A DNA stretch of 64,000 bases from Escherichia coli (GTDB lineage: Bacteria > Pseudomonadota > Gammaproteobacteria > Enterobacterales > Enterobacteriaceae): NCBI RefSeq assembly GCF_965641715.1, contig NZ_OZ282453.1; one strand, written 5' to 3'. A program made the translations under genes and the position numbers. The notes beneath the pieces were generated by a model. It worked only from the letters and a program-made list of their open reading frames with translations. It was not told the origin of the DNA and ran no database searches. Numbering within the stretch: the first letter of the stretch is position 1; every line of letters starts with the position of its first letter. Positions 23,190-53,642 of this stretch are shown here, piece after piece.

Positions 23190-23330
23190 TTACTGCTTAC
23201 ACTGTAAGAACGCCGCAAACTCCGCTCCCCAGAAGCTCATCCGTATTTCGCACAGCGAACCGTGAAGCATCCAGATGATGAGGATTGCCGTCACGCAGAA
23301 CGTGATGGCCGTAAGCGATTTTTGCGACAT
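23190..23330 (-). CDS. Hok/Gef-like type I toxin (small membrane peptide)
   Basis: Hand-translated 46-aa ORF MSQKSLTAITFCVTAILIIWMLHGSLCEIRMSFWGAEFAAFLQCKQ: hydrophobic helix, then SLCEIR and EFAAF, resembling Hok-family motifs. Absent from the track because it is under 60 aa. Confidence 0.55.
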   Translation of the reverse strand: MSQKSLTAITFCVTAILIIWMLHGSLCEIRMSFWGAEFAAFLQCKQ

Positions 23331-33469: not shown

Positions 33470-35698
33470 TTAAATACTCCCCGCGTTATACCACGTCCCA
33501 TTAATGCAATACTGAATTGGCCTTGCCTGAGTTGTATCAATTAATTCATCACGGTTTCCGTTAACTGAACCCGTAACGACATAACCTGACCTGTCAGACC
33601 AGCCGGGACCATTCCATGTCTGAACAGATGACAGACCGCCAAGGCGAATACCTGTAATAAACCTTGAGTTACATTCTGCCTGCGTGTATGCACCAACATC
33701 TCCCGCAGAGGGTTTGCGGGTCGTGGTGTAAAACTCTGACCAGTTAGCCTCAAATCCATAACCATCACGCGCTGAACGATAAAAAATACCGCCGTTCCTG
33801 TAATTCACGCGGAACTGTACAGCAGGGCAGCTCCCCGTATTCATATTGAAGTGGAGGATTAATGTCGATGCACCGCTGATATCTGCATCATAAACACCGC
33901 TATTCCAGTTCCAGCCAACAGCTTTATCATTTGCAACCCTGCTTCCTGTTTGCCCTAAAGCAAATGCAGGCTGCTGGTTTTTCGTGTTGTAGTCTCTTCG
34001 CCAGCCAGGAGCATAAGCATCACCATGATTAATATAAGTGAATTGAGCGTTAGAGGTGCCGCCTCCGGTGGAAGTGCTTGGTGTTGTTACACGGATGGTC
34101 ATGGCACCTTTATTACCCATAACCTCAATAACGCAACCTGCAAGATGAATAGTTCCACAGCCAGTATCGGTAATAATTTTATTATTGCCGTATGACCATG
34201 AACATTTGCACATCCAGTATGGGTGATTGAATGCCCCTTGAGAATCCAGCCATTCAATCAATTGTGCCGTTGTCCAGTTCCCTGCCCCTGTACTAATAGC
34301 ACTGTGAAAAGCGCGACATGCACCAATATTTTTTGTGAAGGTATCTTTTCCTGGAATATCTGCGCCGTTCTGGTTTTTCTGTAATGCGCCAGAAGCCTGA
34401 TTTACCGTTTCTTGTAAACCGAGGTATTCGATAACGGCAGCAACGGTCGATTTCGCAAGAATATCCCGCCCGACTTTTGTCAGGGTTGCCAGGCTGGCGA
34501 CATCATTCCCCGTAAAATACGGAAACCTGTCTGCCGCAGTAGCAAGCCCGGCCAGCGCCGTCAGGGTGGCATCTTTCGGTTGCTTACCCGCAAGCGCGTT
34601 AGTCATGGTGGTCGCAAAATTCGGGTCGTTTCCCAGCGCCGCCGCTAACTCGTTCAGCGTATTCAGTGCGTCAGGTGACGAATCTACAAGGGCGGCAATC
34701 GCAGCCATAACGAAAGCCGTGCTTGCGATTTGGGTATTATTCGTTCCCTGTCGCGCAGTTGGCGTTGTTGGCGTTCCGGTCAGCGCAGGACTGTTTAAGG
34801 GCGCTTTCTTGTTCGTTTCATCCATTACCGCCTTAACCGCTTTCGATGTCGCGGCCAGTGTTTCAGACGTGCTGTTGGTGGCACTACTGAGCTGGACTAT
34901 CCCTTTTTGTGCCGTCGTGGCGTCCTGAGCGGTATATTTTGCGTTAGCAAGGTCATACGCGGCCTTTACTGCTTTCGGCGTTGCAGCCTGCGTTTCAGAC
35001 GTGCTGTTGGTGGCGCTACTGAGCTGAACTATCCCTTTTCGCGCAGTGGTAGCGTCCTGTGCGGTGTATTTGCCATTAGCCAGGTCATATGCCGCCTTAA
35101 CAGCCTTTGGCGTTGCCGCAAGCGTTTCAGACGTGCTGTTAGTGGCGCTGCTAAGTTGAACAAAGCCTTTTGCGGTCAGCGAGGCGTCCGGGTGACGTCG
35201 TGAGTGTTCATGCTCTTTCAGTTTGTCATCCACGTAATCCACTGTGGCCATTACCATGGTGTTATCCACGGTAAGCGCCACGGTGGCAGTGCTGGATACG
35301 GTCAGAATGGTGCGAAATGTTTGTGCACGTCCTGACCCTTCGGCAACGGTTGGCTTGTAACTTTCGGCAGTATTGCCTACTGCGATTAAATCGCCGTGCT
35401 CATCAAACACACCAATTTCCCGGATCCAGAATCCGCCCGTTTCTGGAGGAATAACCAGCTCCGCAATAATGCGGTTCTGATGTGTTGCGTCCAGGATGAC
35501 GCGATTAACAGTGTGTCGCCACACCTCATGCACCAGACGGGTCTGCTTACTGTCTGGTGTGGGCAACGTGCCGCCACCGTCGCCCACGGCCATATGAGTC
35601 AGGCGGACAGGCTTACCATCTGGCGCGGCTGCCTGAGCTAATTTTTTTGCACCCGTATCGGTGATAACGGTTTTAAATTTTCGTGTTGTGGTACTCAT
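33470..35698 (-). CDS. H: Tail fibre protein gpH (constant N-terminus plus currently selected variable C-terminus)
   Basis: 742 aa; conserved phage-fibre N-terminus, three tandem 43-aa repeats, crossover site near codon 421, C-terminus ...[12 protein letters not shown]. Confidence 0.85.
34409..34434. repeat. Invertase crossover site, right (gix/hix-like 26-mer, inside gene H)
   Basis: ttcttgtaaaccgaggtattcgataa, the inverted partner of the left site. Confidence 0.8.
34906..35290. repeat. Three tandem ~129-bp repeats inside the tail-fibre gene
   Basis: The DNA repeats encode [43 protein letters not shown] three times with minor variation. Confidence 0.7.
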
Positions 35699-47141: not shown

Positions 47142-47498
47142 ATGGAAATGAATATGAAAACTGTAACTGATGATGAATTTCGTGAGAACCTGAGTGAAAT
47201 TCTGGATTACCTTTCTTCCGGTGGCAGTGTCGTTATCACGGCGCAGGGAGGGAAGGATGTTGTTCTTGCTGGTTCTGATCTTAGTCCTGAAATACGGGCT
47301 GTCCTTGGCAAAACCAAAAAACTGCGGGATCAAATAAACAAAATGAAGCAACCACTCTTAATAAATGCAGTGAGAGATCTGGAAAAACGTCATCCAGCTC
47401 TTGTCGCACAGAGAAAAAAAGGATTGTCTTTTGAAGATGCAATGAAGCGTACAAGAGAAAAACATGCGGATATCATTAAAAAGCTTGAGGATAACTGA
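47142..47498 (+). CDS. Phd/YefM-family antitoxin
   Basis: N-terminal T..EFRENLSEILDYL...VVIT..GKDVVL resembles the Phd/YefM fold; stop overlaps the toxin start (ATAACTGATGG). Confidence 0.7.
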   Translation: MEMNMKTVTDDEFRENLSEILDYLSSGGSVVITAQGGKDVVLAGSDLSPEIRAVLGKTKKLRDQINKMKQPLLINAVRDLEKRHPALVAQRKKGLSFEDAMKRTREKHADIIKKLEDN

Positions 47499-47905
47499 TG
47501 GACATAGTGTTTTTGTCAAAAGAACAAGTAGAACGTATCCATGCTGAAACTTTACCCCAGAGCGGAAATGCCAATGACGGGCTACTTGAAGGTGCTTTAA
47601 ATCGCGTCAGGACACTACACTACTATGAAGGGGTTGATGATATTCATGCTCTGGCTGCTATGTATTTGATTGGTATAGCCAAGGCTCATGCCTTTCATGA
47701 TGGGAATAAACGCACAGCTTTTCAGGCTGCATCAATATTTTTAATGATGAACTCTTCCGAACTTTCAAACTCCCTGCTGCTGGTTAAATTAACGGTGTTT
47801 TCAGCAATGGGGATAGCTACCCTTGAGGAAGTTACCTTTGCTTTGAAATTGCTGTCTGATTATGGCAATGAATTAATCAGCGACTACGAAGAAGATTATA
47901 TTTAA
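47498..47905 (+). CDS. Doc-family toxin (Fic fold)
   Basis: HAFHDGNKRTAF matches the Doc/Fic core motif HxFx(D/N)GNKR; 135 aa. Confidence 0.8.
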   Translation: MDIVFLSKEQVERIHAETLPQSGNANDGLLEGALNRVRTLHYYEGVDDIHALAAMYLIGIAKAHAFHDGNKRTAFQAASIFLMMNSSELSNSLLLVKLTVFSAMGIATLEEVTFALKLLSDYGNELISDYEEDYI

Positions 47906-48071
47906 TGCTGGCATACTCTGTCGTGTTAAGACAACAGCCTTTGCGGAGACAGGGCAGGGTGCCAGACTTGCCCGCAGCGCGTCTGACATGAGCAGTTATT
48001 CATCTTTTTTATTGTTTTTCTCCATGCAGGGCGACAGTGCGCCCCGATAAAATTAAAAGCCGTCAAATTCG

Positions 48072-48407
48072 TCATTCATGCGTTTTTTCTTCATGGTCTG
48101 TCACTTCTCTCCTGATAACTTCATTGCACAAATCAACGCACTCATTGCAGATGTAAACAGACGGTCCGGCAATCACCTTTGTGACTTCGTACTGGGATTT
48201 ATTGCAGAAGCTGCAATAAATCGTCTCCTCACCTGAAGTCCATGTTTTGCTGGTTTCGCCAGACATCAGTTGTTTGAGGTCTTTTTCACGACGAAGAACT
48301 ATCTGGCCACATTCAGCTATTTTTTGGATGTTGACATTTTCTTCTTTCGCCAGCGCTTCCATCCGCTCAATCAGTCGCTGCGCTTTTTCTCTGTCAATGC
48401 GTTGCAT
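48072..48407 (-). CDS. Stand-alone protein carrying a ClpX-type N-terminal zinc-binding domain
   Basis: C-terminal half [38 protein letters not shown] is near-identical in pattern to the ClpX C4 zinc-binding domain; N-terminal 60 aa helical; no AAA+ module. Confidence 0.7.
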
Positions 48408-48470
48408 TGTGTCCCCCTTGTTTATGTTCCCGGGTTAAAGTCATCAGGGCGGATGCGCCCTGATGTTGTG

Positions 48471-48782
48471 TTATTCGGGAAATAACGCCCGGATATTTCC
48501 GGCCATCTGACTGGTTATCTGTGCGGTTGATACTGGCTGTGACGCGGGGCGTTCTGTCCTGGTTTGTGTCACTGATAACGCTTCATCATCAGCCCATGCA
48601 GCCAGTCGGTAAGCCTCTGCCGGATTCATTTTCAGAAGTGCCAGCCCGGCCAGAAAAGCCACGCGTTGGCCGCTTTTGCGCGCTTCTGGTGTAAGGCTGT
48701 CCAGCCAGGCGCATGCTTCACCTTCGTTCTTGACGGCGGCGGGCTTCAGATAGAAACTTATCCGTCTGGTTGGAGTCGTCAT
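48471..48782 (-). CDS. ParR/StbB-like partition adaptor
   Basis: ~103 aa from MTTPTRRISFYLKP...EACAWLDSL...RVAFLAGLALL, parallel to plasmid R1 ParR; directly downstream of the parM-like gene. Confidence 0.65.
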   Translation of the reverse strand: MTTPTRRISFYLKPAAVKNEGEACAWLDSLTPEARKSGQRVAFLAGLALLKMNPAEAYRLAAWADDEALSVTQTRTERPASQPVSTAQITSQMAGNIRALFPE

Positions 48783-48786
48783 TGGT

Positions 48787-49746
48787 TTACTCCTTGTCCA
48801 TTGCGTACAGCCCATTAACCAGAGCAAACTGTGGCACCCCGTCCGCGATGAAAGTCGCATTAACTCCGCAGGCTTCGCGGATAGCGGGTGCCACAATCTC
48901 CGCCCCGCCACCGACAACCATCACCCGCCCGTAACCCGAAAAAACCGCCAGCGCGCGGATCACGCGTTGTTTCAGTGTTTCTTCCTTTTCACGAATAACC
49001 GCCATCAGGCTGGCGTAATGCGCGTCATTGTGGATGTGCTGGCGCAACCAGGCTTCATCATGGCGATGTTCGATAATGGTATTGGCGATGTGGTGACTGA
49101 TACGCATACCGTTAGTGGCCATCACCGACAGTACGGCATCGGCCATCAGGGAAACGCCTACGTGTGGATCGCAAAACACCTGGCTGATACCTGCCAGTTG
49201 CCCCTGAACCTTTGCCACATCCAGTGTGGTTCCGCCCAAATCCACAATCAGCAGGGATTCAAGCGGACTCATGTCAGCCAGTGCTTTAAAGCCAGCCGGA
49301 ATGGATTCAGGCATAACCCGTACGTTACGGATAGTGAATGTTTCGCCGTTCTGGTACTCCACCGGGCGCATAACGTTCGCTTTTTTGCGGCTGATGTTGG
49401 CCATGTCCGGCTGTGCGTTTGTGTCGAAATACTCGCTCAATGGCAGGGTGACAACCACATCCACCTCCTGTGGCGTGATGCCTGATTTGACCAGCGCGTG
49501 ATGAATGGCAATGACATTCACATCGCTGTACTGGTATTGCGTGTCGGTCGTCTGGACAAAGCGATCGCTGACCGGATCAAAACCATAGCGCACGCCATCA
49601 AGCATGTAGTTCGCGGGCTGCGAGCCACCGAACGGCGCAGACCATTCCGACTTGAAGCTGTTCGGGCTGATGGCGTTGCGGCGTTCGCCGTTCTCAGTCC
49701 ATGCCAGCTTGATGTTGGTGGAGCCGTCGTCGATACAAATTTTCAT
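48787..49746 (-). CDS. ParM/StbA-like actin-family partition ATPase
   Basis: MKICIDDGSTNIKLAW...ISPNSFK...YSDVNVIAIHHAL...VMVVGGGAE...LVNGLYAM follows plasmid R1 ParM through all actin-fold motifs; 319 aa. Confidence 0.85.
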   Translation of the reverse strand: MKICIDDGSTNIKLAWTENGERRNAISPNSFKSEWSAPFGGSQPANYMLDGVRYGFDPVSDRFVQTTDTQYQYSDVNVIAIHHALVKSGITPQEVDVVVTLPLSEYFDTNAQPDMANISRKKANVMRPVEYQNGETFTIRNVRVMPESIPAGFKALADMSPLESLLIVDLGGTTLDVAKVQGQLAGISQVFCDPHVGVSLMADAVLSVMATNGMRISHHIANTIIEHRHDEAWLRQHIHNDAHYASLMAVIREKEETLKQRVIRALAVFSGYGRVMVVGGGAEIVAPAIREACGVNATFIADGVPQFALVNGLYAMDKE

Positions 49747-49769
49747 GTCGCTTTTCCTTATGTTGATTA

Positions 49770-49895
49770 ATTAATCGTTTACAGGATTTTTAAATCCCGC
49801 TTTTGCCTGTTTTGTGCGCGCTTCATATATCGCGGCACGTTTTTTGCTCATTTATGGGATTTGTGAATCCCGTTTCTGTCTGTTTTTTGTTTCCA
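49770..49895. repeat. Two palindrome-containing ~33-bp direct repeats upstream of the parM-like gene
   Basis: ggatttttaaatcccgcttttgcctgttttgtg and ggatttgtgaatcccgtttctgtctgttttttgt, about 73 bp apart; the second lies in the 3' end of gene A. Possible centromere or operator. Confidence 0.35.
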
Positions 49896-52645
49896 CTGGT
49901 CAGGCCACCCCGCAGCAGGTCTGCTTTGCGGCTGGCGCGTTCAGTGGTTTCACTGATTCTCTGTGCGTGCTCTGCGTCGCGGATGGCGCGCAGCATGTCA
50001 GAAAGCACGGTAACGGGTGTTTTCATGGTGTTCTGGTCCTGCTGAAGTGTGGATGCCAGGCGTGCGGCGGCTTCAGGGTCTGATGCCCCCAGCTGTGCCA
50101 GATAGCTGGCGACCGGGTTATGGCGGATCTCCGTGCTGCTTACGCCATGATTACGGCTCAGGCGCTGCCAGAGCTGCGTGATTCGGCTGTCCGGGCGGGT
50201 ATCCGGTTTGCGTACAATTTCAAATCCCTGCGGTGCAATGATGCTGCCGTCAACGTACAGACTGCCGCCCCGTAACAGGTGCTGCATCTGTTGTTCACCG
50301 ATATGCAGGCCGAGAGATTCAGCAGACTCCCGCCATTCTTTAGCGAGTAATTCGTGGTTATCAGGCAAAGGCCGTGGCTGTTTGCGGCTCTGTGTCCAGC
50401 TCTGCATTTCATCACTGCTGTTTTTTGCCTGTTTGTCACGAAGCGAACGCATCAGCGCCCGGCGTTCGTGCCGTTTCAGTGAGCGCATCCATTCGTTCAC
50501 GTCAACGCCGTCAGGAAGCTGCGGCCACGGTGCTGGCCGTTCTTTCGACTGTTCTGTCCCGCTGTTGCCTGTTTCCTGTACACGGGGACAGTTATTGCCA
50601 CGAGTCCAAGGGGCGGCAGGGCCGCCCTGAAGGTCAAAACCATTTTCGCGGGCGCTGTCTTCCGTTTCCGGTTTACGTCTTACCAGTTTCCAGTTATCCG
50701 GATGCGTGCACACACGGGAGGATTCCCCGATGAGTGGTGACCAGATCCCGTAAATCTGTACGCTCTGTTCGCCGTAATCATTCAGCTCATCTGCGAGGTC
50801 GTAGGCGGTGCGAATCAGGTAGTCTTTGCGTGGAACAAGTACGCCGCCCTGTTTTTCAATGTAGGTGGCAAAACACCCGGCATCGGCGGCAGCGAGTACC
50901 GCATCCATTGCGTCATCTTTCAGTCGTTGCGGGCCTTCCGGGTTGCGTGCCATCTGGCTGGCAAGGCGGCGCAGTTCACGCCACACCTGACGGGAGGGGA
51001 TGCCAAAGAACTGGAACTGGCGGACCCGATGAAGGCGCGCCCAGCCGATGGCGCGCTCCACACTCTCGGCCATTGATTTTCCGGTTTCGTGGTCAACGCG
51101 TGGCTTGCCCGTTTTCGGGTCGATGCCATCCACGGCGCGGCTGTCCAGGTTCTTTCCGATGTAGGTCGCGATATAGCTGGTTGGTGTGCCTTTTGAGCCG
51201 TCGACATACTCCGCCTTAAAGCGCGGAGTAATATCATTGCCCAGCTCGTGGCGGTCTTCCTGAATGGCAATATCGCGGGTGATGGCCACGATGCTGTCGA
51301 TTTCTTCCGGATGAGCAAAGACCATCATATGCCAGTGCACGGTGCCGTCATGGTGAGGCTCCACCGTGCGGATGCCATACCAGCGAAGACCGTCGCGGTT
51401 CAGTTTTTTGCGGACCGCCGCAAAAAACGTGTTAACCAGGTAATCGCTGGAGTCGCGCATGGTGGCCCCGTTCCATTTGGGATTCGGATGACCGTTCTCT
51501 GTTGTGGCGTGGTATTTTGACGGGCAGGTGACAGTCAGAAACACCGCTTTGTCGCCACGGGCTTCGGCCAGAAGTTCCAGCCCCTTCATGGTGGCCATCA
51601 TTTCTGCCTTACGGTGAACCGGGTTACTTACTCCCGCGTAATACACCGTCTCGAGATCAATCGTGAACCCGTCTTCATTTTCCAGCATGAAACTTTTCAG
51701 GAAATCGCGTGTTTTCTCGCGCTGTGCGCGAAACTCGCTTAACGCGTCCTGGCTCAGATAGGGCGATGTTTTTCTGGAAACCAGACAGGCGGCGCGGAGT
51801 TGTTCTTCTCTCCACTCGCAACGTAACAGCCACAGTTTGCGTTTCCACCATTCTGCACAGGTCAGGCGAAGGATTGCGCCCGGCAGCAGCTCCGTGTCCG
51901 GTTCGTTCCTCTGGTCTTTGTCTGTTGTCAGTGCGTCATAATGTGGAGGCATGGCGTGCAGGTGTAACGCCATGCGGGCCAGCATCTGATACGCCTTCAG
52001 CGTTACATCCATGGTCAGTTCGCCATCGGTCGCGCCAAAGCCATCGCAGAGTTTTTCGAAGGTGCTGCTGAACATCGCCGCCGTCATGGTGGCCAGTGTC
52101 TGTATCTGGTGTTTGTTGAGCTGCGGCAGGTAAAGCAAATCGTCCAGGCGTTCGCGTCCGGCAAGGGAGCGATAACCCTGTGTCAGCCAGCGGTGATCGG
52201 TGCGCTCCAGACGTTCGAATATTTTGCGCAGGTTTCCGCGCGCGTAGCGTTCAGCCTGCCAGCTCTTTTTGCCTTTCTGACGATCGGCTTCCTGTTTTTT
52301 GCGCAGGAAGGAGAGGTGGCGAATAAGCGGATCGCGCAGATAGGACGGCAGCAGGCGCAGCGAGGCCATGGCTTCATCCACCGCGCCGCGTGCCTGTTTT
52401 CTGGCATCTCCTGCCAGTGTGATGGTTTTGTCCTGTTTTTCCTGTGCGTCCAGGCTTTTATTAATCAGGTTGCCCAGCGGCGTTGCGGAGAACGCCGCAT
52501 CAGCCATTTCCTGGCGGTGCTCGTTCTCTACCCGGTAGGCATCCAGCCAGGAGGAAAGCGCGGATTCAGGAGCGGGGATCCCCGTTCCTTCACGCCCCAC
52601 TGCGTGGCGCGGTTGTTGCCAGTCCCTGATGTACTCTGCCGTCAT
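49823..52645 (-). CDS. A: Replication initiation endonuclease (P2 gpA family)
   Basis: 940 aa; large early protein with a tyrosine-containing segment (TSYIATYIGKN) of the rolling-circle initiator type; last gene of the early operon. Confidence 0.75.
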   Translation of the reverse strand: MTAEYIRDWQQPRHAVGREGTGIPAPESALSSWLDAYRVENEHRQEMADAAFSATPLGNLINKSLDAQEKQDKTITLAGDARKQARGAVDEAMASLRLLPSYLRDPLIRHLSFLRKKQEADRQKGKKSWQAERYARGNLRKIFERLERTDHRWLTQGYRSLAGRERLDDLLYLPQLNKHQIQTLATMTAAMFSSTFEKLCDGFGATDGELTMDVTLKAYQMLARMALHLHAMPPHYDALTTDKDQRNEPDTELLPGAILRLTCAEWWKRKLWLLRCEWREEQLRAACLVSRKTSPYLSQDALSEFRAQREKTRDFLKSFMLENEDGFTIDLETVYYAGVSNPVHRKAEMMATMKGLELLAEARGDKAVFLTVTCPSKYHATTENGHPNPKWNGATMRDSSDYLVNTFFAAVRKKLNRDGLRWYGIRTVEPHHDGTVHWHMMVFAHPEEIDSIVAITRDIAIQEDRHELGNDITPRFKAEYVDGSKGTPTSYIATYIGKNLDSRAVDGIDPKTGKPRVDHETGKSMAESVERAIGWARLHRVRQFQFFGIPSRQVWRELRRLASQMARNPEGPQRLKDDAMDAVLAAADAGCFATYIEKQGGVLVPRKDYLIRTAYDLADELNDYGEQSVQIYGIWSPLIGESSRVCTHPDNWKLVRRKPETEDSARENGFDLQGGPAAPWTRGNNCPRVQETGNSGTEQSKERPAPWPQLPDGVDVNEWMRSLKRHERRALMRSLRDKQAKNSSDEMQSWTQSRKQPRPLPDNHELLAKEWRESAESLGLHIGEQQMQHLLRGGSLYVDGSIIAPQGFEIVRKPDTRPDSRITQLWQRLSRNHGVSSTEIRHNPVASYLAQLGASDPEAAARLASTLQQDQNTMKTPVTVLSDMLRAIRDAEHAQRISETTERASRKADLLRGGLTSGNKKQTETGFTNPINEQKTCRDI

Positions 52646-53320: not shown

Positions 53321-53642
53321 GGTGTGGCCCCTTGTGTAGTAAGTTGTGAAAACTCACCATCCAGAGCTGCGAAACTGTGGGTGGCGAGACGTACGAGGTT
53401 CGCAGTACCGGCTACACAAGAACCCGGCCCGACCGAAGTCGGCCCCGTACGCCCCGCCATAATTCTGACGCGAAAAAAACGTGGCAATACAGTACGCACA
53501 AAAAAACCGCTGGCGCGGTTGTGCGCTTGTGTAGTCAGCAGGCTGCGAAACCCGGCACCCGTTTTGTGAGGTGCAGCGGAAATGTAACCTGACTGATTGC
53601 GGCATGGCAAGCGGTTTTTTTGTGTGTGCATGTTCTGGTTTC

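What the first reader, a model, noticed from the sequence alone, without database searches (positions are those of the whole stretch)
48471..49895. Plasmid-type ParM/ParR partition cassette inside an integrated P2-like prophage
The 319-aa protein follows plasmid R1 ParM motif by motif (DDGSTNIKL, ISPNSFK, YSDVNV, GGGAE, LVNGLY) and the next gene resembles ParR. Type II partition systems are a plasmid hallmark; an integrating phage has no obvious need for one. Two palindrome-containing repeats upstream (ggatttttaaatcc / ggatttgtgaatcc) could be a centromere or operator. Possible roles: maintenance of an episomal form, segregation or positioning of replicating phage DNA, or a repurposed function.
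Basis: partly seen in the sequence, partly recalled or inferred. Interest (0 to 1): 0.7.

Follow-up and report, generated by a model that had tools for sequence, protein, structure and literature searches.

The report
Plasmid-type ParM/ParR operon in P2-like prophage
An integrated P2-like (P88-type) E. coli prophage carries an intact plasmid-style ParM/ParR DNA-segregation operon right after its replication gene; this is real and under selection, but it is already annotated, sits in about a quarter of E. coli genomes and has been remarked on in print, and its role in the phage is untested.

Summary
Window 48787-49746(-) encodes a 319-aa ParM (E=7.5e-94 and 47% identity to R1 ParM, all nucleotide-binding motifs intact). 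Window 48471-48782(-) encodes a 103-aa ParR with a ribbon-helix-helix N-terminus and the family-wide C-terminal ParM-binding motif. Upstream lie two 42-nt repeats 73 bp apart, each holding a 20-bp palindrome. The host element is an integrated P2-like prophage between pdxB and flk.

It is not new. RefSeq and PHROGs annotate it. It is in phage P88 and in 1278 of 5426 complete E. coli genomes. Rousset et al. 2022 already wrote that about a quarter of P2-like phages carry a putative partition system, perhaps for plasmid-like maintenance.

What I add:
- The cassette always sits directly after the replication gene gpA in P2-like prophages of six genera.
- These ParMs form a clade nested within plasmid ParMs.
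- parM is under strong purifying selection (pN/pS 0.075).
- ParR alleles are mosaic but keep both functional ends.

The most likely role is a working type II partition module, co-transcribed with gpA, that moves extrachromosomal phage circles, as AlpAC does in CGP3 and SrpMRC in SXT/R391. Function is untested.

The parts
48787..49746 (-). parM: 319-aa actin-like segregation ATPase of the ParM/StbA family
   Evidence: phmmer against R1 ParM structures gives E=7.5e-94 over the full length. Pfam StbA_N plus the ParM C-terminal domain. phrog_691 'partition protein', E=1.6e-89. Invariant D6 D7 G8 S9 T10, E147, D169-T174 and G279-A282. pN/pS 0.075 across 84 copies, 83/83 intact.
48471..48782 (-). 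parR: 103-aa adaptor with an N-terminal ribbon-helix-helix DNA-binding part, a variable linker and the C-terminal motif NIRALFPE
   Evidence: Pfam PF10784, E=2e-24. phrog_2515. 33% identical to R1 ParR over residues 1-61. A profile including it hits pB171 ParR 2JD3, E=3e-15. The C-terminal motif aligns with R1 KKNAMKLIN and is conserved in most of the 33 ParR sequences. The ATG lies 4 nt after the parM stop, with the SD AAGGAG inside the last parM codons.
49775..49816 (-). Proximal 42-nt repeat holding the palindrome (A)CGGGATTT-AAAA-ATCC(T/C)G. Candidate ParR binding site (operator/centromere). It lies in the 76-bp gpA-parM intergenic region.
   Evidence: Direct repeat family D1. Palindrome match with 1 mismatch. 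Across 67 aligned copies (54 unique haplotypes) the outer GGG/CCC of the arms stay nearly constant while the 4-nt spacer varies. By eye, a weak promoter overlaps it: -35 TTTAAA at 49789-49794 and -10 ATTAAT at 49766-49771 (8 of 12 matches). The consensus scan found none at 9 of 12 or better.
49848..49889 (-). Distal 42-nt repeat holding the palindrome ACGGGATT-CACA-AATCCC(A/G)T, 73 bp upstream of the proximal copy and inside the last codons of gpA
   Evidence: Equivalent pairs of (C)GGGA-boxes lie upstream of parM in the Hafnia and Plesiomonas prophages (72 bp apart in both) and as an inverted pair in Serratia and Enterobacter.
49823..52645 (-). gpA: 940-aa P2-type replication endonuclease, immediately upstream and on the same strand. 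The cassette appears to be the tail of its operon.
   Evidence: phrog_91 'nicking at origin of replication', E=1e-275. PGAP names it 'replication endonuclease'. No terminator-like site on the minus strand between gpA and parM. This gpA type is present at >=80% coverage in 1318 E. coli genomes, against 1278 for parM.
48442..48465 (.). GC-rich 10-bp-stem hairpin just downstream of the parR stop. Possible operon end or barrier to antisense transcription.
   Evidence: The terminator-like scan scores it on the + strand only; there is no T-run on the minus strand. It is absent from loci with the alternative parR allele.

Best explanation
This is a functional type II (ParMRC-type) DNA partition module that an ancestor of one lineage of P2-like phages captured from an enterobacterial plasmid. 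It has since been kept as the distal end of the phage's early/replication operon (cox ... gpA-parM-parR). Shown: intact ParM and ParR genes of the R1/pB171 family, tightly coupled, under purifying selection, at a fixed position after gpA in six genera, with a pair of conserved palindromic boxes upstream. Inferred: ParR dimers bind the two 20-bp palindromes. These would serve both as a small centromere and, because the proximal one overlaps a weak promoter-like site, as an autoregulatory operator. The ParR C-terminal tail then captures ATP-ParM filaments, which push ParR-bound phage circles apart. The cassette has no strong promoter of its own and no terminator separates it from gpA. It should therefore be made mainly when the early promoter fires, after infection or on derepression, when the phage genome is an extrachromosomal, replicating circle. 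The likely benefit is to distribute or position those circles. This could mean that both daughter cells inherit a copy before integration or during a transient excised state. It could also support efficient replication, as AlpAC does in CGP3 and SrpMRC does for excised SXT/R391 ICEs.
For: Protein identity and intactness. The ParR C-terminal motif aligns with the R1 ParM-binding peptide and is conserved in most of the 33 ParM/ParR pairs. Operon layout and absence of a terminator. Paired palindromes unique in the window, with nearly constant outer arms and variable spacers. Analogous paired boxes in other genera. Purifying selection: parM pN/pS 0.075, parR 0.27, 83/83 parM and 80/82 parR full length. 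Mosaic ParR alleles (54% identical) keep the N-terminal DNA-reading strand MTTPTRRISFYLKP and the C-terminal NI(R/Q)x(L/F)FP while the linker is hypervariable. Same position after Phage_GPA in Escherichia, Citrobacter, Hafnia, Plesiomonas, Serratia and Enterobacter prophages. Between these phages ParM (59-62%) is more conserved than gpA (32-55%), portal (30-46%) or terminase (35-43%). Phage-context ParMs are monophyletic in an NJ tree, 141/200 bootstraps. Experimental precedents in integrated elements: PMC4446434, PMC5539076, PMC4489591.
Against: No experiment addresses this system. Only two ParR-type boxes are present, against 10 iterons in R1 parC, so a full segrosome may not form and the sites could be operators only. 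ParR binding to them is inferred. P2-type phages replicate from gpA-nicked circles and kill the cell in the lytic cycle, so a need for segregation is not obvious. Timing of expression is inferred from gene order and a negative promoter scan, not from data. ParM being more conserved than the structural genes could also reflect recent horizontal exchange of the module between phages. The 83 copies used for the intactness count were the best-scoring hits. Truncated ParM protein clusters exist in the large protein database: 188-261 aa, several hundred members each.
Confidence: 0.6

Rival explanations
1. Plasmid-like lysogeny or carrier state. The cassette exists so that the prophage can persist for many generations as a low-copy extrachromosomal replicon instead of, or as well as, integrating. 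This is the suggestion made by Rousset et al. 2022.
For: Statement in PMC9122126. One PLSDB record (NZ_CP148288.1, 34,461 bp, circular) is a complete P88-like phage genome deposited as a plasmid. The same prophage carries two other plasmid-stability-type modules: a hok/gef-like gene (23190-23330) and phd/doc (47142-47905).
Against: 1439 of 1441 parM places in complete E. coli genomes are chromosomal, and only 7 plasmid records carry the cassette. Integrase, repressor and flanking host genes are present. The single circular record could be excised, replicating DNA from an induced subpopulation. I could not establish whether that strain's chromosome also carries the phage. P2-type replication from a gpA nick is tied to lytic development (own knowledge), and no plasmid-type replication gene is annotated in the related prophage. 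hok is enriched in prophages in general.
Confidence: 0.15
2. Accessory cargo of the gpA-gpQ hotspot that benefits the host or excludes competitors. Examples would be interference with plasmids or phages that use related centromeres, or a defence function, rather than segregation of the phage's own DNA.
For: The cassette lies in the gpA-to-portal region, which is a known hotspot for anti-phage and other accessory systems (PMC9122126). Its neighbours are accessory genes: a ClpX zinc-finger-like protein and phd/doc here, and HicAB or a KAP NTPase elsewhere.
Against: No PADLOC model matches ParM or ParR. Unlike true hotspot cargo, the cassette is constant and always abuts gpA while the genes beyond it vary. 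The variable region begins only inside parR. Cis-acting boxes are conserved next to the genes, as expected if the phage's own DNA is the cargo. ParR is only 33% identical to R1 ParR in the DNA-binding part, so cross-talk with common plasmids is unlikely.
Confidence: 0.1
3. A decaying or functionally reduced remnant. ParR survives as a small transcriptional repressor acting at two operators, and ParM is a passenger without segregation activity.
For: Only two binding boxes instead of an iteron array. The E. coli ParR lacks the middle helical segment present in R1, pB171-type and the other phage ParRs. Truncated ParM clusters exist.
Against: parM pN/pS is 0.075 with all ATPase motifs invariant. 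The ParR tail motif that serves only to bind ParM is conserved across mosaic alleles. The module has been retained across six genera.
Confidence: 0.08

Closest known systems
ParMRC (parA/stb locus) of plasmid R1/R100
   Same: Same protein families and order (cis site, parM, parR). ParM is 47% identical with identical nucleotide-binding motifs. The ParR N-terminal RHH is 33% identical, and the C-terminal N-x-x-x-L-hydrophobic tail aligns. parM and parR are tightly coupled.
   Different: It sits in an integrated tailed prophage directly after a rolling-circle replication gene, not on a plasmid. The cis region has two 20-bp palindromes 73 bp apart instead of two blocks of five 11-bp direct iterons. 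ParR is shorter and lacks the middle helical segment. The ParM belongs to a separate, phage-only clade that is under 60% identical to every plasmid ParM found.
The same cassette in Escherichia phage P88 and other Xuanwuvirus (Peduoviridae); CP-933T-type prophages of E. coli O157:H7 and E2348/69
   Same: 94-98% identical ParM at the same position, annotated 'plasmid segregation protein ParM' and 'partition protein'. Noted as present in about a quarter of P2-like phages by Rousset et al. 2022.
   Different: Nothing material. The window copy is one more member. It carries the commoner parR allele, followed by a ClpX zinc-finger-like gene and phd/doc.
AlpAC/alpS of Corynebacterium glutamicum prophage CGP3
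   Same: An integrated prophage encodes an actin-like ATPase plus an adaptor that binds sites upstream of its own operon. The genes are induced early and are needed for efficient replication of the excised circular phage DNA (PMC4446434).
   Different: Different actin-like family (the Pfam ALP_N match here is only E=8.8e-6, against E=5.6e-82 for StbA_N). Opposite gene order (adaptor first). Gram-positive host and a large cryptic prophage. The adaptor is unrelated.
SrpMRC of SXT/R391 integrative conjugative elements
   Same: A type II partition system in an element that normally lives integrated. It is expressed only with the excision/transfer programme, and it stabilises the excised replicating circle (PMC4489591).
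   Different: A distant ParM branch. SrpR has no recognisable ParR homology, whereas here ParR is a clear PF10784 member. The host element is conjugative, not a phage.
StbA-type partition gene of plasmid-prophage D6 (P1-like)
   Same: A ParM homologue carried by a phage (47.5% identical).
   Different: According to its record annotation (StbA-type plasmid stability protein) and my own knowledge of P1-like phages, D6 lysogenises as a plasmid, so its need for partition is self-evident. Its ParM groups with plasmid ParMs by identity.

Membership tests
Type II (ParMRC) partition systems, R1/pB171 group | Actin-fold ATPase ParM with phosphate-1, connect, phosphate-2 and adenosine motifs | tested here: met
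   E=7.5e-94 to R1 ParM structures. Pfam StbA_N and ParM C-terminal domain. D6 D7 G8 S9 T10, E147, D169-T174 and G279-A282 are invariant in the alignment with R1.
Type II (ParMRC) partition systems, R1/pB171 group | ParR adaptor with an N-terminal ribbon-helix-helix DNA-binding domain, encoded directly downstream of parM | tested here: met
   PF10784, E=2e-24. 33% identity to R1 ParR over residues 1-61. A profile including it matches pB171 ParR 2JD3, E=3e-15. The start codon is 4 nt after the parM stop.
Type II (ParMRC) partition systems, R1/pB171 group | ParR C-terminal peptide that binds ParM | tested here: met
   Sequence level only. The motif (K/R)xN(A/I/S)xx(L/M)F, at or within a few residues of the C-terminus, is conserved in most of the 33 phage and plasmid ParRs. 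It aligns with the R1 tail KKNAMKLIN, the peptide co-crystallised with ParM in 4A62 (own knowledge). Physical binding was not testable.
Type II (ParMRC) partition systems, R1/pB171 group | Centromere parC: an array of repeated ParR sites upstream of parM that includes the operon promoter | tested here: inconclusive
   Two 42-nt repeats with 20-bp palindromes, 73 bp apart, against 10 iterons in R1. Paired boxes recur in other genera. The promoter is only a weak by-eye candidate (8 of 12), and the scan found none. ParR binding was not testable.
Type II (ParMRC) partition systems, R1/pB171 group | ATP-dependent ParM filament formation and stabilisation of an unstable replicon | not testable with these tools
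   Needs biochemistry and a plasmid-stability assay.
Type II (ParMRC) partition systems, R1/pB171 group | Usual context: carried by a low-copy plasmid (typical, not strictly defining) | tested here: not met
   Integrated prophage between pdxB and flk. 1439 of 1441 places in E. coli genomes are chromosomal.
AlpAC-type phage actin systems (CGP3) | AlpC-family actin-like protein with an AlpA adaptor encoded upstream | tested here: not met
   The protein is a ParM/StbA member (StbA_N E=5.6e-82; ALP_N only E=8.8e-6). The adaptor is a PF10784 ParR located downstream. The resemblance is functional, not by family.
Known anti-phage defence systems (PADLOC-DB 2.0) | Match of a component to a defence-system model | tested here: not met
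   No hit for ParM, ParR or the ClpX zinc-finger-like protein. Only the neighbouring Doc toxin gives weak hits to candidate systems.

The most novel reading that the evidence does not exclude
The ParMR module may not be optional cargo. It may be an ancient, integral part of the replication module of a whole lineage of integrating P2-like phages, found in Escherichia, Citrobacter, Hafnia, Plesiomonas, Serratia and Enterobacter. In that reading a minimal two-box centromere and a plasmid-derived actin spindle actively position or segregate gpA-generated phage circles, either during lysogeny establishment or during lytic replication. This would be the first such cytoskeletal genome-handling system shown for a Gram-negative tailed temperate phage, and it could allow a facultative phage-plasmid lifestyle.
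Probability: 0.4. Interest if true: 0.55.

Novelty: already known. Interest (0 to 1): 0.33.

Why it matters
If the module works on phage DNA, some very common E. coli prophages actively segregate or position their extrachromosomal genomes with a plasmid-derived actin motor. These prophages are present in about 24% of complete genomes, including O157:H7, EPEC E2348/69 and ST131 strains. That would bear on how efficiently they lysogenise, on whether they can persist in a transient episomal state, and on where the boundary lies between integrating phages, phage-plasmids and ICEs. The system is easy to test because phage P88 is inducible and R1 ParMRC assays are standard. As it stands, the finding adds no new kind of system. 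It is a correctly identified, already annotated feature whose biology has not been examined.

Tried and rejected
- Consensus sigma-70 promoter scan of 47900-50300 found nothing. Only a by-eye 8-of-12 candidate remains.
- I looked for R1-like 11-bp iteron arrays upstream of parM. The region is A-rich like R1 parC, but I could define no iteron series beyond the two 42-nt repeats.
- A search for further copies of the palindrome elsewhere in the prophage found none better than chance.
- PADLOC gave no hits for ParM, ParR or the zinc-finger protein.
- A direct PDB sequence search with ParR alone found nothing. A profile was needed.
- I tried to learn whether the strain carrying the 34.5-kb circular phage 'plasmid' also has an integrated copy. 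The strain did not appear in the E. coli genome listing, so this is unresolved.
- I looked for expression data for the CP-933T copy in EHEC transcriptome and proteome papers and one supplement. ParM and ParR are not reported.
- The first literature search, using word-start matching, returned only 'Parma' and 'parmentieri' false hits.
- A first bootstrap tree script timed out. I redid it with a faster distance routine.
- I considered an AlphaFold run on a ParM-linker-ParR-tail fusion and dropped it, because the tool returns no coordinates or contact information, so docking could not be judged.
- I considered the RNA-hairpin reading of the palindromes less likely. The common T-to-C change in the left arm is not compensated in the right arm.
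Full report
**1. What is there**

On the minus strand of the window, three genes follow one another:
- gpA at 49823-52645, a 940-aa P2-type replication endonuclease (phrog_91 'nicking at origin of replication', E=1e-275).
- A 319-aa ORF at 48787-49746, after a 76-bp gap.
- A 103-aa ORF at 48471-48782, starting 4 nt after the previous stop.

It matches the solved R1 ParM structures over its full length (E=7.5e-94; 47% identity). It also matches Pfam StbA_N (E=5.6e-82) and the ParM C-terminal domain (E=5.4e-68). The phosphate-binding, catalytic and adenosine-binding residues are invariant in an alignment with R1 ParM and five other homologues: D6 D7 G8 S9 T10, E147, D169-T174 and G279-A282.

The 103-aa protein is a PF10784 (Plasmid_stab_B, i.e. 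ParR/StbB) member (E=2e-24). It is 33% identical to R1 ParR over the first 61 residues. I recalled the R1 ParR sequence from memory and verified it as 100% identical to the gene next to parM in over a thousand plasmids. A profile built from phage and plasmid ParRs, including this one, matches the solved pB171 ParR (2JD3) with E=3e-15.

**2. The host element**

The surrounding 34 kb is a P2-like prophage. It has integrase, a C-type repressor, cox, early genes, gpA, portal, terminase, capsid, lysis and tail genes, and ogr. It is inserted between pdxB and the TagO/flk side of the chromosome. The early genes from cox to gpA, then parM, parR and a following small gene, all point the same way.

**3. 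The cis elements**

The copies are 79% identical and 73 bp apart.

Across 67 aligned copies of this region from related prophages (54 unique haplotypes), both repeats have the consensus ACGGGATT-N4-AATCCCGT, that is, 8-bp arms. The outer GGG/CCC of the arms are nearly constant, and most variation falls in the 4-nt spacer. One common arm change (T to C) is not compensated on the other arm. This fits a protein-binding site better than an RNA stem.

No other good copy exists in the 64-kb window. The distal repeat lies inside the last ~22 codons of gpA, and the proximal one lies in the intergenic gap.

R1 parC looks different, with two blocks of five 11-bp A/C-rich iterons. The centromere assignment is therefore plausible but unproven.

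No consensus promoter or minus-strand terminator separates gpA from parM. By eye, TTTAAA (49789-49794), 17 nt, then ATTAAT (49766-49771) is a weak promoter candidate. Its -35 element sits in the spacer of the proximal palindrome. That is the arrangement expected for ParR autoregulation, but this is inference.

**4. How common and how old**

The cassette is in phage P88 and other Xuanwuvirus genomes, where it is annotated as ParM and partition protein. Full-length parM is in 1278 of 5426 complete E. coli genomes, including E2348/69 and O157:H7 strains. Of 1441 places, 1439 are chromosomal. The matching gpA type is in 1318 genomes, so the two genes travel together.

Plasmid ParMs are all under 60% identical to the window ParM, apart from six records. 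By DNA search, seven plasmid records carry the cassette at 96-98% identity, and these include prophage-carrying or misassigned replicons.

More distant relatives (55-62% identity) occur in Hafnia, Plesiomonas, two Serratia species and Enterobacter. In every case parM-parR lies downstream of a Phage_GPA gene, either directly or after one or two small ORFs, and upstream of variable genes and the portal gene. Homologues at 53% identity or less lack phage neighbours. The two I inspected sit in an ICE and in an integrated plasmid.

In a neighbour-joining tree the six phage-context ParMs form one clade nested among plasmid ParMs, with 141/200 bootstraps. Between these phages ParM (59-62% identical) is more conserved than gpA (32-55%), portal (30-46%) or large terminase (35-43%). 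This indicates strong constraint, module exchange between phages, or both.

**5. Evidence of function**

- Among 84 E. coli-clade copies, parM has pN/pS = 0.075 and all 83 retrieved copies are intact. The commoner parR allele has pN/pS = 0.27. The caveat is that these were the best-scoring loci, and truncated ParM clusters do exist in the large protein database.
- ParR is mosaic. In E. albertii and many E. coli, sequence identity stays near 98% through gpA, the repeats, parM and the first ~18 codons of parR, then collapses, giving 54% protein identity overall.
- Across 82 loci I found several ParR alleles. 80 of the 82 are full length, and these keep the N-terminal strand MTTPTRRISFYLKP and the C-terminal NI(R/Q)x(L/F)FP. 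The linker between them is hypervariable.
- The C-terminal motif aligns with the R1 ParR tail KKNAMKLIN and recurs in most of 33 ParRs from phages and plasmids. From my own knowledge, that tail is the peptide seen bound to ParM in PDB 4A62.
- Conservation of exactly the DNA-reading end and the ParM-binding end, joined by a free-evolving tether, is what a working adaptor predicts.
- The other genera also have a pair of (C)GGGA-boxes within ~130 bp upstream of parM. They are direct repeats 72 bp apart in both Hafnia and Plesiomonas, and an inverted pair in Serratia and Enterobacter.

**6. Most likely mechanism**

I conclude that this is a working ParMRC-type module belonging to the phage's replication operon. 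Because it appears to be read through from gpA, it should be expressed when the early promoter is active. At that stage the genome is an extrachromosomal circle being copied by gpA.

In this model ParR bound at the two boxes would couple phage circles to ParM filaments, which push them apart. This could serve in any of these ways:
- Delivering a copy to both daughter cells before integration.
- Retaining excised circles.
- Organising replication in space.

Experimental precedents exist for the last two roles in other integrated elements. AlpAC of prophage CGP3 is early-induced, its adaptor binds upstream of the operon, and it is required for efficient replication (PMC4446434; PMC5539076). SrpMRC of SXT/R391 ICEs stabilises the excised form and a test plasmid (PMC4489591).

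Every step beyond gene identity, conservation and layout is inferred.

**7. Rivals**

- *Stable plasmid-like lysogeny* was suggested by Rousset et al. It has anecdotal support. One 34,461-bp circular 'plasmid' record is a whole P88-like genome, and the prophage also carries hok-like and phd/doc modules. But integration is overwhelmingly the observed state.
- *A defence or exclusion role* is suggested only by the hotspot location. It is disfavoured by the fixed position next to gpA, the conserved cis boxes and the lack of PADLOC matches.
- *A decaying remnant* is disfavoured by the selection data.

**8. Novelty**

The cassette is annotated in RefSeq, PHROGs and phage records. Rousset et al. [quoted passage not shown] I found no functional study.

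The finding is therefore correct but already known as an observation. The parts that appear not to be in print are the anatomy of the cis sites, the phage-specific ParM clade, its fixed place after gpA across genera, and the mosaic ParR. The open question is what the module does for the phage.

Noticed in passing
window 48072-48407 (-): A 111-aa protein directly downstream of parR. Its C-terminal ~45 residues match the N-terminal C4 zinc-finger domain of ClpX (TIGR00382, E=3.7e-13; PGAP 'ClpX C4-type zinc finger protein'; phrog_6797). It has no AAA+ domain. It might mimic or titrate ClpX substrate and adaptor recognition. It accompanies the commoner parR allele and is replaced by unrelated genes in loci with the other allele.
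   Followed up: partly
window 47142-47905 (+): A Phd/YefM-like antitoxin (118 aa) and a Doc/Fic-family toxin (135 aa; TIGR01550, 53.6 bits, above cutoff) lie in the variable part of the gpA-portal hotspot, convergent with the parMR operon. Doc gives weak PADLOC hits to candidate systems PDC-S23 and PDC-M59B.
   Followed up: partly
window 23190-23330 (-): A 46-aa Hok/Gef-family toxin ORF (…SLCEIR…EFAAF…) next to ogr at the prophage end. With parMR and phd/doc, the prophage carries counterparts of both R1 stability loci (parA and parB/hok-sok) and of the P1 addiction module. No Sok RNA was found at the Rfam gathering threshold.
   Followed up: partly
window 53377-53464 (-) and 53500-53574 (-): Rfam matches to C4 antisense RNA (83 bits) and the IsrK Hfq-binding sRNA (64 bits), side by side in the prophage early region on the same strand as the early genes.
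   Followed up: no
window 48728-48782 (first ~18 codons of parR) versus L090 5965-6279: A sharp recombination breakpoint inside parR. E. albertii and many E. coli prophages are ~98% identical through gpA, the repeats, parM and the parR 5' end, then diverge to 54% ParR identity with different downstream genes. So the hotspot's variable region effectively starts within parR. Several ParR alleles coexist (62, 9 and 11 of 82 loci).
   Followed up: yes
L133 (NZ_CP148288.1, 1-34461): A complete P88-like phage genome with integrase, deposited as a circular 34.5-kb 'plasmid' of E. coli strain Z1323PEC0009. It could be an episomal prophage or excised replicating DNA. I could not determine whether the chromosome also carries it.
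   Followed up: partly
window 48442-48465: A perfect 10-bp GC-rich hairpin (CATCAGGGCG…CGCCCTGATG) between parR and the zinc-finger gene. It scores as a terminator only on the + strand, which has no annotated gene reading into it. It may block antisense transcription coming from the phd/doc side.
   Followed up: no
L004 29630-32245 (E. coli RM10740 chromosome): In the strain whose parMR region is 100% identical to the window, the prophage tail-fibre gene is interrupted by an IS66-family element (ISCro1). The window itself has an uninterrupted 742-aa tail-fibre ORF at 33470-35698, so the window comes from a different, apparently intact copy.
   Followed up: no
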